Of a stretch of 64,000 bases of DNA, positions 38,001-44,000 are shown piece after piece. The DNA is from Escherichia coli (GTDB lineage: Bacteria > Pseudomonadota > Gammaproteobacteria > Enterobacterales > Enterobacteriaceae). The stretch lies in assembly GCF_003018235.1 (NCBI RefSeq), contig NZ_CP027437.1; one strand, written 5' to 3'. Every line of letters begins with the position of its first letter. Position 1 is the stretch's first letter. Position numbers: made by a program.

Positions 38001-41000
38001 ATCGACCACAAATGGCGCAGGATAAATTAAGACTTCATGAAAACCATCCAGCCATTCCAGTCCTAACTCCAGAACGGGCAGGCAAAATAGAAGTGCTATC
38101 CGGCAGCTTCTTAATGAATCCAGTTCAAAGCCCTGTAAAGGAACAAGCCGCTTTTGCTGTAAAAAACGTTCGGCAAGAGTGACTAATTTGCTTTGTTCCT
38201 GTTCCGTCAGACACGTTAAAAGGGGGATCGATAGTGCTTCCTGCCAGGGAAGGGCAGTTTGATGTGCTGATTCTTGTACTTTCCAGGGCCACTTAATCAT
38301 CGTTTTGCTCGCAAACTCGTCACTTGAACAAAATTGCACGGACAGGGACTGTTAAAATGCCAAATTTCCTGGCATCATGGCAACCATCTGAACGGAGAGA
38401 TGCCGGAGCGGCTGAACGGACCGGTCTCGAAAACCGGAGTGGGGGCAACTCCACCGGGGGTTCAAATCCCCCTCTCTCCGCCAAAATTCAATCACTTACA
38501 CATCATTAAGTCAGTGACAAAAATCACACTTGGAATTACTTGGAATATTTTCTTGGAATATTTTCAGGTAACGGGACATCAAGTGTTGGTGAAACTTTAA
38601 CCTTCCTGTCATAGATTAGCACTTGCCCTTCGGTTTTGTGACCAGAGAAAAGTTGCTTATCCCGGCTGCTTCCTTCATAGTCTGAAATTCCTTTCGCCTT
38701 CAGATCATGAAAGGTGAAGTCGGTTAAAATACCTGAAATTTTTCCAGCACGATTTCTTGCTTCTACCCACATTTCGTTAAAGCCTTTGTACATATATCGG
38801 TTGCCGTATTGATTGCTGATTACATAGGCGGATGTTGGTAACTGTTTTGCTTTTTCGATCGCCGCCTGTAATCGTGGACTCCATGCTTTTATCTGTTTTT
38901 TCCCTGTTTTCCCTTGCTGGATAAAGATCCCGTCGTTTCCAATCTGTTCCCATTTCAGCGATAACACATCGGAAACCCTCGCTGCACACAGATAGGCAAT
39001 TTCCATTGCGATAAAAACAGGAAGAGGTGCAACGCTTAATACTGCCTGGTATTCTTTGTCGGTTACATATCGTTCGCGGTTTTTGGCCTTGAATTTACTT
39101 ACACCTGCACATGGGTTAGCCTTCACGTACCCTCGCTCATACCCCCAACTGTAAACACGGGACATACTGCTTTTTTCATGGTTGGCTTGCGTTTTACTCT
39201 GCTCCCCTCTTTTGTCCATGTATCGACGGATGTGTTCTGGTTTTATGGAATCCGCTGGTACCTTACCGAATACGGCAAGCAACTTTTTTTGATGTTGCAG
39301 ATAATCTTTTTGTGTTCTTGGACTAAGGTCACTGTAATAGGCGCTGGCGAGGAATTTTTCCCACAAGCGACCGAATGTCATTGCACGATCGCGATTATTT
39401 ACAGTTTCCTCATACTTTTTCCATAAAGCAGCTAAACCATCCTTGATGGCGGTTAGTGTTACAGATTCTCTGGATGTTGGTTTCCATACATAACTATATT
39501 TATTTGGGTATACATTTGGAGGTAATTTTTCGTGTTCAGGATTTTTCCTTCGTCTTCCCATCAGATCGCACCAAAATTCGGCTTTACCTCGCGTGGTGGT
39601 AAAGTTTTATTGCAGGTAAATAGATCCCGGCTGACAATCGGTTTGCCACTACGATTGGTATAGAACGGAAGCCCGTTTTCCATTAACCATTTTCGCTGGT
39701 GGCTTGCATATTTGCAGCCCGTTAATATTAGCAATTCATCTTCGGTTAAAAATAAGCTGCTCATAGCTATATCTCATAACCGCCGCTAACTATATACGGT
39801 TAGCGGCAATTAGGGTTGAACATTAAAAATCAGCCTGACTCGGGATCAGTTTTTGCCAGATAGCTGAAACGTATTTTGTCTGGTAACGAGCGTCATCAAG
39901 TGCATTATGGCGCTCACCTTCGAATGGGATAGTAGTTCTGGCATCGAAGTCTATGGCTTTCCCCAGCTCAACGATTGTGCGTACATCGCGATCGTTGCAG
40001 TAGCGCCACGGGCAGGGGATCCCCTGCCGTTCGTATGAACGGCGCAAAATCGTGTTGTCGAAGTTGGCTCCATTTCCCCAGACATGAACAAAAAACTCAC
40101 CGGAGTTTTCGGTGATAAATTCCCGCAATTGCAGTAGTGCATCATCTAACGGGATTTCATCGGTCATAATGGCAGATTGCGCCTCGCGTGATTGCTTAAG
40201 CCACCATTTAATGGTGTCACGCTCAATGACTCCGCCAGCAGTTTCCAGATCGATAGTCTTACTAAATTCCGGTCCCATATCTCCGGTTTGCGGATCGAAA
40301 AATATTGCACCTATTGAGATAATCGGGGCATCAGGATTTTTTCCCATGGTTTCAAGGTCGATCATTAAATGGTCACACGTCCTGCTGGTGGATGTGATAA
40401 CGTGATGACCGTTCACCGTAATTAAGGGATCTGCCGTCTCGCCAGTTTCACTATCGCTGGCGTGGTCCTGAGCGCTGCCAGCATTCTCCTTGTGTGGATG
40501 TTCAGCGCCTTCCATTTTCTCCGAATCGTCTTCCTGAACTTCAACCTGGTTCTTGTCATCGAATGTTTCCTGATATGTTGCGTCGCCCATCACCGCACCA
40601 CAATCAGGGCAGTTGCCGCCACCGCTTTGACCGCAGGCGGTGCAGATCTTTTCCGGTTCCTGTTGCACTACTGGTTCAGGTTGTTTCGTTTCTGGCTCGT
40701 TTTGTTGCGTATTTGGGCTGTTTTGTTCCGCTTTCTGGTCGTTCTGTTCCGTTTCTTGCTGGTTCTGGTTCACAGAATCGCGGGTTTCAATCCCCTTCAC
40801 CCATTTCGGATCATTCGGATCGCTAATCCCTGCAACAAATTCACCACGTGATACTGCAAGCAGTTCATCGGCGTCAGGCTGGCTGATATTGGCTGCCTGC
40901 ATAATTTTGTTTACTTCGTCAGCGGTAACTTTTACCGGCCCTGGTTGTGCGGTCGTATCAGATGCACCAGTATTTTGTTGTGAACCTGAGTATGTACCGT

Positions 41001-44000
41001 TTTTGCGGGCGAAATATTCTTCTTTCGTGATTTCAGTAGCCCCGGCAGCCAGCGCCTTATCCAGACCAGAAAGTTTGTTTGCGCGACCGTATTTTTCGCC
41101 ATCCTTGTCGGTGAAGAGGAAGTAGAACGGCCCCTCACGCTCTACAGATGGTTCGACTTCCACTTTGCATTCGGTTTTTTCGTTGTCCGGAATTGCCGTT
41201 TCCACTGCATCAGTTTCTGGTACTGGCGACGAGAGAGTATCAGTTGCGCTCTGATTTGTTCCTTCATCTTCAAACACGCCCTTTGTAGTCAGGTATTCAG
41301 TAATGTATTTGTTCAGTGCCACAGGGTCTTTGTGAATGTCGATCGGACGTTCACGGACAAGGCCAAAAATAGTCTGGCGGTTGTAGCGAAGGGCATCAGG
41401 CTGTTTGCGCATTGATGCCGAGATACGCTTCCAGTCTTCGCGGTCGTTGTCGATAACTTCATTTTTTGCCCAGCGATGGATGCTGCCGTCAATGTTTCCG
41501 GCATCAATGTCACCAGGCCACAGAGCGTAGGCCAGTTCATCATCCAGTGTTTTCCATGTCTGCTTATATTCGCGACGAATGACTGCAGTGACAAGGGGGA
41601 CTTTTTCTGCTGAGTTTTCAGTGTGCTGTCGGTTGACTCTGGCGCGGGCGAGATCAACAACAGACGTGTATTTTCCGGTTTCCTTGCGTTCACCTTCGCG
41701 ACGTTTTTTCCAGATGCGCATCTCTGCCTGAATTTCGGGCCATTTAGCACCAGGATTACATTTATGCTTAACCCACCCGATGGCGTGCAACTTAAGCTCC
41801 GGATACATGGCGTTAACTTCTGGCATTTTCATCAACGCTTCAACGATATGTCCGTCGAATGTTGCCATGTCTTCCTGCAACAGTTCCTGTGCACTAATCA
41901 CCATATCAACGGTGATGTTTTCACATGTGTCGAACTTAACCATGACAGCGTTCTGTACTTCAGGGGCCAGCTTGTCAAAAGTGACGTTCATCGGATCTGA
42001 TTCAGTCTCAACCGGGACAAAGGAAGCAGACTCCTCATCCCAGCGGTTTTCCTGCATATATTCAGCATCCCAGGAATCGAGGGCAGGGCGGGGTATACCG
42101 GGTTTATCCTCGCAAACAAGAAATTTATAAGCGCAGTCCTGAGCAGCCGGATATTGCTCCAGGAATTGCCAGGTAAATTTGGCACGGGCGCGGCGTTCGT
42201 CACCGGCTTCAATGGCAGTGGCTACAGCAACTGCACCTTCTTCCTTTATTGCCTGTTCGTCCGGAATGGCGGCGCAAATAAAGACTTTACTCATTTTGTT
42301 TTACCTCATTACAGATTTAAGGGTGAACAAATCCCTGCCATTGCTGGCATATAAAATTGAACCGAATATATTTATTAAGCCGAATATCGTACCGGGTTAG
42401 TTACTTATTACCGTTCACCACGACTCCGCCTTTACAGGTAAACCATCACGTCCGAGAAAGACCTTAATCATGGTTTCCTTAATACAGTGTTGAGTGGAAA
42501 AATCACGAATATAGAGTCGGTGTTTTTTAATATTATTTACCGAAGCAATATACGTTCTTCCTTTATGAATAACATAATCCCCGGGAGTCACGCACTGACG
42601 GGGTATTTCATCAGTGCCGAAGTGATGAGCAATCATAGATGCCTCCTGAATAAACGGTCTTACAAAGGAAATGTCATAAAACTATTTAATACTCAGCAAC
42701 TGTTCGACGGTCATATTTTTAATTGTGCTCCGGTTTACAAGAGTCCATCCCTGTTTTTCCAGATAAAACCGGAAGGTGTCCAGGGTACAGACCATTGCAC
42801 CATCAGGAACGGTTTCGGTGAATTTGATGTTGCCGTACTCATCCAGATGAATAACCAGAGTGCGGCCATTGCCAGGAATCATTCTGTTAGAGGGTTGGGT
42901 GTTGTTCTGGCGCAGCTCTGCCTCCATGCGATCGAACTCAGCAATGTAGGTCTCTTTGAAAGCGGCTGCTTTTTTACCAGTGAAGCCCATCACCAGGAAA
43001 ACGAAGCCGTTTTTGGTTATTTGGTACATGGGGAGTTTGCGTCCGGTTGAGTCGGTGTATTCGCTCGACACAAAATTGTGCTCAGTGAATTTTGCTGAAC
43101 AGTCCAGATTACGAATTTTATCCAGCACTCGTTCGTGGCGTTTGCCAAAGAACTCGGCGATCGCAACAGACGTGGTGACAGCGCGACCATTTTCGATGGT
43201 TACGTCAGGGTGAGAAAGAGCAGGGATAGTAGTCATGATGACAGCCTCTAGTGATAAGTTAGTTAACTCACCACCACGGCTTTCCACTACCATAAGGGTG
43301 GTGAGACGTACAGGGGTGGAAATACCGGTCACTAGAGAACCCGGCCAGCCTTTCGGCTGCCCTGCACGCCCCACCATAATGCGAATGAGGCTGTGCTTAG
43401 CGCGTAAAAAAACCGCTTTGGCGCGGTTATGCGCTCTAGTGAACATCGGGTTTCCACGCCCGGCACCCGTTTTATAAGGTGCTGGTGCACTATAATTCCA
43501 CCCGTTCTGGTTTTCAATAGCTACATTCAACATTTTCTCTTACCTTTCATCACCGAAGTGAACTTTGTTGATGCGGTGCCTGGTGCCTCCAGGTGACGTT
43601 AACCACCGGAGTATTTCACCCATAACACTGACGCTTTTAACTGTTCCGCGTGCGCTCAGCCGCATTCACCGCATCACAAAATTCACTTTAAAAAGGGCGG
43701 CAGGGCAGTCACGGAGTAAAACTGATACCGCCAAACGTCACCAGAAAATTGATAACAGAGGACGTTGCAGCGGGGTTGTCACTTAAGCGTATGGTCAACC
43801 TGACAACCCGGTGTCCTCAACGGGGGAAGGAATAACCCCGCCATACTTACCGCCGCGCCATTTCGCGGATTGCCACAACCGGAAAAATTTAACGACAGGC
43901 TATCTATGAACCAGCAACCTCGCCGTGCGCTTTCGCGTTATGGTCTGACTTTTCAGGGAAATATCCTTTCAGTAAACTGTCAGTGCCGGATGCTCACCCG

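What the first reader, a model, noticed from the sequence alone, without database searches (positions are those of the whole stretch)
39823..42294. 823-aa early protein: DnaQ-like exonuclease fused to a long N-terminal region with a repetitive acidic linker
Only the last ~180 aa look like a DEDD 3'-5' exonuclease. The preceding ~600 aa are unassigned and include a Gln/Glu/Pro-rich segment encoded by imperfect short tandem DNA repeats (~40650-40780). The fusion sits where recombination genes normally lie, so it may be a recombination or anti-host-nuclease factor.
Basis: seen in the sequence. Interest (0 to 1): 0.4.

Follow-up and report, generated by a model that had tools for sequence, protein, structure and literature searches.

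The report
RecE-like scaffold with swapped 3'-5' exonuclease
This is a real, very common prophage gene whose protein is the non-catalytic body of the recombination enzyme RecE with a different, opposite-polarity (3'-5') DNA exonuclease attached; the family is already catalogued but has never been tested biochemically.

Summary
ORF 39823-42294 (-) encodes 823 aa. It ends in an intact DEDDh exonuclease of the Rv2179c/T4-DexA family (aa 642-813) and contains a Gln/Glu/Pro-rich stretch encoded by 21-bp imperfect repeats.

The "unassigned" 600 aa are not orphan. Residues 245-626 are homologous to the non-catalytic part of Rac RecE. Residues 1-345 form a module conserved as far as Stenotrophomonas and Pectobacterium phages.

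The family is modular: one of two unrelated N caps, a shared ~100-aa core, a linker, and an interchangeable head. The head is DEDDh 3'-5' exo here, PD-(D/E)XK 5'-3' exo in RecE, and a Rad52-like annealase in distant phages.

The gene sits in the recE slot (kil-exo-xis-int) of a Qin/Tritos-type lambdoid prophage at serU. That prophage has no annealase and no anti-RecBCD gene and is Chi-rich. It matches the nuclease-only "Tritos" Rec-module class published in 2025.

Near-full copies occur in 3,531 of 5,426 complete E. coli genomes, and K-12 ydfE is a truncated copy. Repeat number barely varies. All modules are under purifying selection.

It is not a RecE/lambda-Exo equivalent. The most likely role is a tethered 3'-end-trimming nuclease acting with host RecBCD; this is inferred, not shown. 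Already known as a family; moderate interest.

The parts
39823..42294 (-). Complete CDS, 823 aa + stop; early-left-operon 'exonuclease' of a lambdoid prophage
   Evidence: ORF list; full-length match to PHROG 2082, 1-823/823; 99.9% identical RefSeq gene annotated 'exonuclease'
42304..42307 (-). GAGG Shine-Dalgarno, 9 nt upstream of the ATG
   Evidence: Read directly from the sequence
41563..42294 (-). N-terminal cap, aa 1-244 (YdfE type; precomputed PF27430 + PF27432). K-12 ydfE is this part cut off by IS2
   Evidence: PHROG 5943; unrelated to the RecE cap by hhalign; conserved in Stenotrophomonas and Pectobacterium phages
41260..41562 (-). Shared core, aa 245-345, common to RecE, the DEDD proteins and the Rad52-headed relatives
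   Evidence: hhalign 99% probability, E 6.6e-18, against RecE ~258-355; BLASTP; dN/dS 0.15
40930..41259 (-). Polar/acidic linker, aa 346-455, containing a ~46-aa insert (aa 387-432, nt 40999-41136) that is absent from RecE
   Evidence: Gap in the RecE alignment; composition
40417..40929 (-). Central RecE-like segment, aa 456-626, about 75% identical to RecE 450-592
   Evidence: BLASTP; more than 80% nucleotide identity to recE in Rac-SA53 (H25)
40789..40863 (-). Conserved peptide [25 protein letters not shown] (aa 478-502); candidate docking motif
   Evidence: Shared with RecE and with 23 Rad52-headed relatives; lies in the segment with the lowest dN/dS, 0.13
40654..40782 (-). Six imperfect 21-bp / 7-aa repeats (aa 505-547); TRF core at 40681-40764
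   Evidence: length fixed in 72 of the 73 DEDD-headed copies measured; RecE has two units fewer
40597..40644 (-). Four-Cys zinc-ribbon-like motif CTACGQSGGGNCPDCG (aa 551-566)
   Evidence: Conserved in RecE; weak Pfam DZR hit, E 0.11
40372..40587 (-). Acidic linker, aa 570-641; RecE homology ends at aa ~626 (the head-swap junction)
   Evidence: 25% D/E; least constrained segment, dN/dS 0.54
39856..40371 (-). DEDDh 3'-5' exonuclease head, aa 642-813 (Rv2179c-like / T4 DexA-like)
   Evidence: Pfam 222 bits; PDB 8KEL, which from its length and sequence I take to be T4 DexA, E 1.3e-5; catalytic residues conserved
42415..42636 (-). Upstream neighbour: Kil (KilR-like FtsZ inhibitor), same operon
   Evidence: PGAP annotation of the 99.9% identical locus; Rac synteny
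39561..39764 (-). Downstream neighbour: DUF4224 excisionase-like gene
38536..39561 (-). Integrase, next to tRNA-Ser(CGA) 38394-38483 (prophage left end, serU)
44848..45255 (-). DicA-like repressor at the head of the early-left operon
40384..40391 (+). Chi site (GCTGGTGG) inside the gene; one of 7 plus-strand Chi sites in the visible 25.5 kb of prophage

Best explanation
The gene encodes the nuclease of a Tritos/Qin-type lambdoid prophage Rec module. The protein is built like RecE, but its 5'-3' PD-(D/E)XK head is replaced by a DEDDh 3'-5' exonuclease. Shown here: (i) an intact DEDDh active site; (ii) homology of aa 245-626 to RecE's non-catalytic region; (iii) the same scaffold carrying three different heads in different phages (3'-exo, 5'-exo, Rad52-like annealase); (iv) the recE position in the operon; (v) no annealase, lambda Exo, Gam or Abc homologue in the prophage; (vi) a Chi-rich, strand-biased genome; (vii) purifying selection on every module. 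Inferred: the gene is expressed from the repressor-controlled early-left operon during lytic growth. The long N-terminal scaffold, with its flexible acidic linker, conserved peptide motif and zinc ribbon, brings the head to DNA ends or to recombination/replication intermediates. There the head removes 3' single-stranded tails. In a phage that relies on host RecBCD-Chi-RecA rather than on its own annealase, the most plausible benefit is turning 3'-tailed ends into blunt ends that RecBCD can load on, or removing 3' flaps. This last step is speculative.
For: Domain calls. Catalytic residues. RecE alignment. Variant with a RecE N-terminus plus the same DEDD head. Shared core by hhalign, E 6.6e-18. 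N module fused to a Rad52/22-like head in ZF40, BUCT708 and 79 viral contigs. Same slot kil/dicB-(ydfD)-exo-xis-int in the window, mEp460, Tritos and vB_EcoS-689R5. No RecT, RecE head, Rad52-like, Bet, Exo, Gam, Erf or Abc in the window or in about 85 related loci. Chi counts 7 plus / 2 minus in the prophage part, against about 0.5 and 0.2 expected from base composition; Tritos 9/2. Published class 'Tritos: nuclease +, SAP -, anti-RecBCD -, Chi-rich' and 'DnaQ-like 3'-to-5' nucleases in lambdoid Rec modules' (PMC12315714). dN/dS 0.13-0.31 for the modules. RecE's N-terminal region has unknown function but enhances linear-linear recombination (PMC11611040).
Against: No biochemical or genetic data exist for this protein or for K-12 ydfE. 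3'-5' exonucleases usually antagonise recombination, as PMC12315714 itself notes. The substrate could be RNA, since the family founder Rv2179c is an exoribonuclease. The scaffold's binding partner is unknown, and the scaffold has no relative of known structure. The blunt-ending idea rests on my own knowledge of RecBCD end requirements and was not tested here. Expression timing is inferred from synteny only; the promoter/terminator scan was uninformative.
Confidence: 0.55

Rival explanations
1. Defence or DNA-scavenging nuclease of the T4 DexA / EcD ('HREX') kind. Under this reading the head degrades foreign (for example 5hmC-modified) or host DNA, and the prophage gene protects the lysogen or the induced cell from other phages.
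For: The closest solved structure is 8KEL, a 227-aa 'Exodeoxyribonuclease' that I take to be T4 DexA. A stand-alone E. coli DexA homologue, EcD, degrades T4 DNA and protects against T4 (PMC12153337). The WW pair that aligns with DexA W67/W68 is conserved. A genuine stand-alone head in Salmonella prophages sits next to a DndB-like gene.
Against: EcD starts MIDTET and is not among the closest homologues of this head. Identity to DexA is only 26%, and DexA D169 aligns with Ala. PADLOC gives only a generic DEDDh match. The gene lies deep in the early-left operon, which by synteny with the K-12 dicB operon is repressed in lysogens. The scaffold is shared with recombination proteins.
Confidence: 0.2
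2. 3' exoribonuclease, like the family founder Rv2179c, acting on phage or host RNAs. One possibility is maturation or turnover of the small RNAs encoded in the same operon.
For: The Pfam family name and the PGAP names '3'-5' exoribonuclease'. The same operon encodes DicF, IsrK and C4 RNAs.
Against: The only characterised phage relative, T4 DexA, is a DNase (annotation; PMC12153337). The scaffold is otherwise attached to a DNA exonuclease and to a DNA annealase. There is no RNA-binding domain.
Confidence: 0.1
3. Functional equivalent of RecE/lambda Exo: a resection nuclease that feeds a phage annealase (the classical recombination reading).
For: Same operon slot as recE. About 370 aa are shared with RecE. 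Several database records call it exodeoxyribonuclease VIII.
Against: The NCBIfam ExoVIII equivalog scores 276 bits against a cut-off of 1269, and the match covers only non-catalytic positions. There is no PD-(D/E)XK domain. DEDDh enzymes work 3'-5', so they destroy the 3' tail that annealases need. No annealase of any family is present.
Confidence: 0.05
4. Anti-host-nuclease (anti-RecBCD) factor, or a decaying gene without function.
For: No direct evidence. Many copies are truncated or frameshifted, for example K-12 ydfE and locus L093.
Against: The Chi-rich, strand-biased genome indicates use of RecBCD, not inhibition (PMC12315714). There is no similarity to Gam or Abc. Intact copies dominate: 3,531 genomes hold a place covering at least 80% of the gene. 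dN/dS is 0.13-0.31 for all modules.
Confidence: 0.05

Closest known systems
Rac prophage RecE (exonuclease VIII)
   Same: Same operon position, after kil and before xis-int. Homologous core (aa 245-345) and central segment (aa 456-626, about 75% identical), including the [13 protein letters not shown] motif, the heptad repeats, the 4-Cys ribbon and the acidic tail.
   Different: The N-terminal cap is unrelated (no Exonuc_VIII PF06630). The catalytic head is DEDDh 3'-5' rather than PD-(D/E)XK 5'-3'. No recT follows the gene. The repeat region has two extra heptads and there is a 46-aa insert.
Tritos-type lambdoid Rec module nuclease (Zheng, Casjens, Davidson, Amundsen & Smith 2025, PMC12315714); also mEp460, Evi, HannyBb, PhiR42_1, PPompW prophages; PHROG 2082; K-12 Qin ydfE fragment
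   Same: The same protein, 90-95% identical and 823 aa, in the same slot. The module has a nuclease only, and the genome is Chi-rich.
   Different: Nothing of substance: the window's copy is an ordinary member. The paper, as far as I could read it, does not describe the RecE-scaffold relationship; its supplement was not available.
T4 DexA and E. coli EcD (HREX); Mycobacterium Rv2179c
   Same: DEDDh fold family PF16473, conserved catalytic residues, conserved WW pair.
   Different: Those proteins are stand-alone, about 170-230 aa. This head is fused behind a 640-aa scaffold, is only 26% identical to DexA, and the DexA specificity residue D169 is not conserved in the alignment.
ZF40 gp07 / Stenotrophomonas phage BUCT708 710-aa proteins (PHROG 2489)
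   Same: YdfE-type cap plus core, 27% identical over aa 11-377. Same early-left slot upstream of DUF4224-type xis and int.
   Different: The C-terminal head is a Rad52/22-like annealase domain, not a nuclease, and it is followed by a Sipho_Gp157 gene.

Membership tests
DEDDh (DnaQ-like) exonucleases, Pfam PF16473 Rv2179c-like | Profile score above the curated cut-off | tested here: met
   222 bits against a cut-off of 27, aa 642-813, profile positions 2-177 of 177
DEDDh (DnaQ-like) exonucleases, Pfam PF16473 Rv2179c-like | Exo I/II/III acidic residues and the motif III histidine (D-E-D-H-D) | tested here: met
   D646, E648, D746, H796 and D801 are invariant in the alignment with T4 DexA (D7, E9, D119, H186, D191) and four stand-alone homologues
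DEDDh (DnaQ-like) exonucleases, Pfam PF16473 Rv2179c-like | 3'-5' exonuclease activity, and whether the substrate is DNA or RNA | not testable with these tools
   Needs an enzyme assay
RecE / exodeoxyribonuclease VIII (NCBIfam NF007259 equivalog) | Full-length match above the equivalog cut-off | tested here: not met
   276 bits against a cut-off of 1269; only model positions 270-603 of 877 are matched
RecE / exodeoxyribonuclease VIII (NCBIfam NF007259 equivalog) | C-terminal PD-(D/E)XK nuclease domain (DUF3799 in RecE) | tested here: not met
   Absent here and present in RecE; tblastn with the RecE head finds nothing in the window
RecE / exodeoxyribonuclease VIII (NCBIfam NF007259 equivalog) | N-terminal Exonuc_VIII domain (PF06630) | tested here: not met
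   No hit here; present in RecE and in the 813-aa variant; the two caps do not align by hhalign
RecE / exodeoxyribonuclease VIII (NCBIfam NF007259 equivalog) | Adjacent recT annealase partner | tested here: not met
   No RecT in the window or in related loci
RecE-family scaffold (shared core plus central segment) | Homology to RecE ~258-355 and 450-592 | tested here: met
   hhalign E 6.6e-18; BLASTP E 3e-61
Tritos-type Rec module (PMC12315714) | Nuclease present; no strand-annealing protein; no anti-RecBCD | tested here: met
   No SSB gene is annotated in the early-left operon of the 99.9% identical locus, but SSB was not searched for separately
Tritos-type Rec module (PMC12315714) | Many Chi sites, biased to the top strand | tested here: met
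   7 plus / 2 minus in the 25.5 kb of prophage that is visible; Tritos 9/2. Only part of the prophage lies in the window
T4 DexA / EcD HREX nucleases | Stand-alone protein of ~180-230 aa with the 5hmC-recognising Trp and Asp (DexA D169) | tested here: inconclusive
   The WW pair is conserved. The D169 position aligns with Ala, with an Asp two residues later, and the alignment is at only 26% identity. The protein is not stand-alone
Contingency / phase-variable repeat locus | Repeat copy number varies between strains | tested here: not met
   72 of the 73 DEDD-headed copies measured have the same 44-aa inter-anchor length, and one has +7 aa. The sample is biased towards close relatives
Catalogued anti-phage defence systems (PADLOC-DB 2.0) | Specific model match | tested here: not met
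   Only the generic Cas-associated DEDDh model, 22.7 bits

The most novel reading that the evidence does not exclude
The RecE-type N-terminal scaffold (core, conserved [13 protein letters not shown] peptide, zinc ribbon) is a general delivery module. On this reading, lambdoid and related phages use it to bring interchangeable DNA-end-processing heads (5'-3' exonuclease, 3'-5' exonuclease or Rad52-like annealase) to one common host or phage target. The DEDDh version would then define a distinct recombination strategy, in which the phage supplies only a 3'-end trimmer that prepares its own Chi-rich DNA for the host's RecBCD. If true, this would give the long-unexplained N-terminal two-thirds of RecE a testable function.
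Probability: 0.2. Interest if true: 0.6.

Novelty: already known. Interest (0 to 1): 0.33.

Why it matters
The gene is one of the commonest prophage genes in E. coli: near-full copies are in about 65% of complete genomes, with up to 10 matching places per genome. It is routinely mislabelled "exodeoxyribonuclease VIII", and nobody has tested what it does.

Seeing it as a RecE scaffold with a swapped head has two practical consequences. First, the annotation should read "RecE-like N-terminal region / DEDDh 3'-5' exonuclease", not ExoVIII. Second, the natural head swaps (3'-exo, 5'-exo, annealase) are a ready-made experiment on what the N-terminal region of RecE does. That question is open, and it is relevant to RecET direct-cloning technology, where only full-length RecE gives efficient linear-linear recombination.

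The gene also bears on how Chi-rich lambdoid phages without their own recombinase exploit RecBCD.

Tried and rejected
1. The first literature search for "full-length RecE" matched "receptor" by prefix and was useless; I repeated it with whole-word matching.

2. I tried to identify EcD (HAK9828821.1) among the homologues. Only its cloning primers were available (it starts MIDTET), and none of the 236 retrieved proteins matched. Its identity to this head therefore stays unknown.

3. Profile searches against PDB sequences found nothing for the N module (best E 0.42, noise) or for the Rad52-like head (no hit).

4. The promoter/terminator scan gave no more sites than shuffled sequence, so it says nothing about expression.

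5. The "stand-alone" 183-aa E. coli head P0189 turned out to be the last piece of a frameshift-broken full-length gene. I dropped it as evidence for an independent head.

6. The first profile scan of viral contigs was saturated by near-identical E. coli copies. Re-ranking on the distant sequence worked.

7. The search for homologous proteins returned no hit longer than about 1.75 times the query. The architecture census therefore rests on viral contigs, not on that database.

8. The hypervariable-repeat idea was rejected.

9. The supplement of PMC12315714 is not held. I could not confirm how its authors typed the Tritos nuclease, or which proteins they call "RecE-2".

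
Full report
**1. The observation**

A GAGG Shine-Dalgarno lies 9 nt upstream.

Pfam places an Rv2179c-like 3'-5' exonuclease domain at aa 642-813, scoring 222 bits against a cut-off of 27. Nothing in the local Pfam copy reaches threshold upstream of it.

I aligned the last 197 aa with T4 DexA and four stand-alone homologues. All five DEDDh residues are invariant: D646, E648, D746, H796 and D801. The nearest solved structure is 8KEL/8KEN, a 227-aa "Exodeoxyribonuclease" that I take to be T4 DexA (E 1.3e-5).

Tandem Repeats Finder reports a 21-bp, 4.0-copy imperfect array at 40681-40764. Read in frame, six heptads (RDSVNQN QQETEQN DQKAEQN SPNTQQN EPETKQP EPVVQQE) span aa 505-547, which is nt 40654-40782.

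**2. The N-terminal 640 aa are not orphan**

The NCBIfam equivalog for exodeoxyribonuclease VIII matches aa 245-626 to model positions 270-603 of 877. The score is 276 bits against a cut-off of 1269, so this is a partial match.

A direct BLASTP against K-12 Rac RecE aligns aa 262-626 with RecE 278-592 (39% identity, E 3e-61). About 75% identity holds from aa 470 onwards. That stretch covers [25 protein letters not shown], the heptads, a four-Cys motif (CTACGQSGGGNCPDCG) and an acidic tail. Homology stops at ...ETADP, the boundary of RecE's nuclease domain.

RecE itself is Exonuc_VIII (PF06630, aa 2-178) plus a PD-(D/E)XK domain (aa 615-850). A review states that RecE's N-terminal region has unknown function, is dispensable for nuclease activity, and enhances linear-linear recombination (PMC11611040).

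For aa 1-260, a public protein database already lists two newer Pfam families, PF27430 and PF27432. These are not in my local Pfam copy. PHROG 2082 ("exonuclease") matches the protein end to end.

**3. A modular family**

(a) Phage vB_EcoS-689R5 carries an 813-aa variant. Its aa 58-615 are 58% identical to RecE 50-591, it contains PF06630, and its head is nearly identical to the DEDD head here.

(b) A profile-profile comparison shows that YdfE-type and RecE-type proteins share only a ~100-aa core: this protein ~240-340 against RecE ~258-355, 99% probability, E 6.6e-18. The two N-terminal caps do not align.

(c) tblastn with aa 1-260 found distant relatives in Stenotrophomonas phage BUCT708 (710 aa) and Pectobacterium phage ZF40 gp07 (721 aa). 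Identity is 27% over aa 11-377.

(d) The C-terminal halves of those proteins belong to a family in which 17 of 30 members hit Pfam Rad52_Rad22. The best hit is 25.5 bits against a cut-off of 20.3, and a second member scores 20.3, at the cut-off. No other family recurs in more than 3 members. This assignment is moderately supported. A profile search of PDB sequences found nothing.

(e) Census over IMG/VR contigs:
- about 130 copies are YdfE cap + core + central + DEDD;
- 13 are RecE cap + core + central + DEDD;
- on the distant branch, all 79 are cap + core + Rad52-like head, and 23 of them also carry the GISDPN.PKWVK peptide.

The architecture is therefore one of two caps, a shared core, a flexible linker with a conserved peptide, and one of three heads: 3'-5' exo, 5'-3' exo or annealase.

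**4. Genomic context**

The window contains E. coli chromosome (yeeJ-like adhesin, mtfA, tRNA-Asn) up to tRNA-Ser(CGA) at 38394-38483. A lambdoid prophage begins there.

The gene order, taken from the PGAP annotation of a 99.9% identical O158:H23 locus, is: int, DUF4224 xis, this gene, kil, Rha-family, small ORFs, DUF1391, DicA-like repressor, then divergent dicC followed by replication genes.

Rac has kilR-ydaE-racC-recE-recT-ralR-rcbA-xisR-intR. So the gene occupies the recE-recT slot.

The same arrangement is seen in the free-living phages mEp460 and Tritos: dicB, ydfD, exo, xis, int. In K-12, the Qin gene ydfE is the first 767 nt of this gene, cut by IS2.

tblastn with RecT, the RecE head, the Rad52-like head, lambda Exo/Bet/Gam and P22 Erf/Abc1/Abc2 finds nothing in the 64-kb window or in about 85 related loci.

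**5. Distribution and selection**

Of 5,426 complete E. coli genomes, 4,780 have a match and 3,531 have a place covering at least 80% of the gene. The median is 2 places per genome and the maximum is 10.

Across 54 distinct full-length copies, pooled Nei-Gojobori dN/dS by segment is:
- cap: 0.13-0.31;
- core: 0.15;
- motif segment: 0.13;
- repeats: 0.22;
- zinc ribbon: 0.17;
- head: 0.21;
- acidic linker before the head: 0.54.

The whole protein is therefore maintained. These pooled values are not corrected for phylogeny or recombination.

The repeat region has the same length in 72 of the 73 DEDD-headed copies measured. One copy has an extra QKAEQNS unit, and RecE has two units fewer. Slippage has happened, but this is not a variable locus.

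**6. What is already published**

Zheng, Casjens, Davidson, Amundsen and Smith (Genome Res 2025, PMC12315714) analysed lambdoid Rec modules. They report DnaQ-like 3'-to-5' nucleases in them. They define a "Tritos" type (nuclease +, annealase -, SSB -, anti-RecBCD -) with many Chi sites, and they argue that phages without anti-RecBCD use host RecBCD plus Chi.

Tritos gene TRITO_27 is an 823-aa, 91%-identical copy of this gene, and it is the only nuclease in that operon.

I tested the Chi prediction here. The visible 25.5 kb of prophage has 7 Chi sites on the plus strand and 2 on the minus strand, against about 0.5 and 0.2 expected from base composition. Tritos has 9 and 2. Int is on the minus strand, so the window's plus strand corresponds to the conventional lambda top strand. 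That correspondence is my inference.

A separate paper (PMC12153337) shows that T4 DexA and a stand-alone E. coli homologue, EcD, degrade 5hmC DNA, and that EcD protects against T4. EcD starts MIDTET and is not among the closest relatives of this head. No paper assigns a function to ydfE.

**7. Mechanism**

Shown here: an intact 3'-5' DEDDh active site, on a scaffold shared with two kinds of recombination protein, in the recombination slot of a phage that lacks an annealase and an anti-RecBCD gene and is Chi-rich.

Inferred:
- The gene is expressed with the early-left operon on induction. This is by analogy with the DicA-repressed dicB operon of Qin and rests on my own knowledge.
- The scaffold tethers the head to DNA ends or to recombination/replication intermediates.
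- The head removes 3' single-stranded tails.

My preferred reading is that trimming gives blunt or near-blunt ends that RecBCD can load on. RecBCD's need for such ends is established knowledge but was not tested here. This step is speculative, and it has to be weighed against the general observation that 3' exonucleases antagonise recombination.

Rivals:
- a DexA/EcD-like defence or scavenging nuclease (0.2);
- an exoribonuclease (0.1);
- a true RecE equivalent (0.05, contradicted by domain content and by the missing annealase);
- an anti-RecBCD factor or a dead gene (0.05, contradicted by Chi richness and by purifying selection).

**8. Verdict**

The finding is real and the description accurate, but the gene is an ordinary member of a catalogued, very widespread family whose class was described in 2025. 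The annotation "exodeoxyribonuclease VIII" found in several records is wrong for the catalytic domain.

What this analysis adds is the explicit module map, the three-way head swap on a common core, and the conserved linker peptide. It also adds the probable Rad52-like nature of the ZF40-type heads. As far as I could read, the 2025 paper lists ZF40 as lacking an annealase and mentions nuclease-less "RecE-2" proteins of unknown role. I could not check whether these are the same proteins.

Interest is moderate, mainly as a route to the function of RecE's N-terminal region.

Noticed in passing
window 43294-43381 (-), 43406-43482 (-), 43695-43746 (-): Rfam finds C4 antisense RNA (80.9 bits), IsrK (65.3 bits) and DicF (72 bits) in the early-left operon upstream of the gene. 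IsrK and C4 lie inside the 5' part of the 283-aa 'Rha family' ORF (42682-43533). That ORF's true start is therefore probably further downstream, and the locus looks like a P1 c4/ant-type or Gifsy isrK-type antirepressor switch.
   Followed up: partly
L008:4474-6636 (Pectobacterium phage ZF40 gp07); L007:3974-6103 (Stenotrophomonas phage BUCT708); 79 IMG/VR loci L181-L260: Proteins annotated 'putative exonuclease' or 'hypothetical' combine the YdfE-type N module with a C-terminal domain whose family matches Rad52_Rad22 (17 of 30 members; best 25.5 bits against a cut-off of 20.3). They look like scaffold-annealase fusions, not nucleases. PMC12315714 lists ZF40 as having no strand-annealing protein.
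   Followed up: partly
window 40789-40863 (aa 478-502): The peptide [25 protein letters not shown] is conserved in RecE, in the DEDD proteins and in 23 Rad52-headed relatives. It lies between low-complexity linkers, in the segment with the lowest dN/dS (0.13). It is a candidate short docking motif with an unknown partner.
   Followed up: partly
L247, L252, L256 (IMG/VR contigs), N-module linker between cap and core: Distant relatives carry (Ser-Thr)n dipeptide runs of clearly different lengths at the cap-core junction. Simple-repeat linkers therefore recur in this family at more than one position.
   Followed up: no
window 38484-64000: Chi sites: 7 on the plus strand (39695, 40384, 50983, 52289, 52346, 61826, 61881) and 2 on the minus strand (52931, 57385). 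This is about twice the density of the adjacent chromosome and far above the base-composition expectation. One site lies inside the gene and one inside xis.
   Followed up: yes
L093:737-3127 (E. coli contig JZOP01000123.1): Three consecutive ORFs of 456, 157 and 183 aa are 88-90% (first two ORFs) and 69% (third, the head) identical to consecutive parts of the 823-aa protein. This is a frameshift-broken copy whose last piece is annotated as a stand-alone '3'-5' exoribonuclease'. Many short database entries for this family are probably such fragments.
   Followed up: yes
L089:3743-5570 (Salmonella prophage): A genuine stand-alone 189-aa head (58% identical) sits just upstream of xis-int and directly after a DndB-like gene (PADLOC DndB, E 3e-37). 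No other dnd genes are visible in the locus.
   Followed up: no
window 38536-39561 and 42415-42636; L001: The integrase is intact here (341 aa) but frameshifted in the 99.9% identical O158:H23 prophage. PGAP gives the Kil homologue the product name 'cell division protein FtsZ', which is the name of its target rather than of the protein.
   Followed up: no
window 29031-37088 (-); tRNA-Asn at 18710, 21118, 22942, 37327: A 2,685-aa YeeJ/invasin-like adhesin ORF with long, near-identical internal repeats, and four tRNA-Asn genes in the chromosomal part of the window.
   Followed up: no
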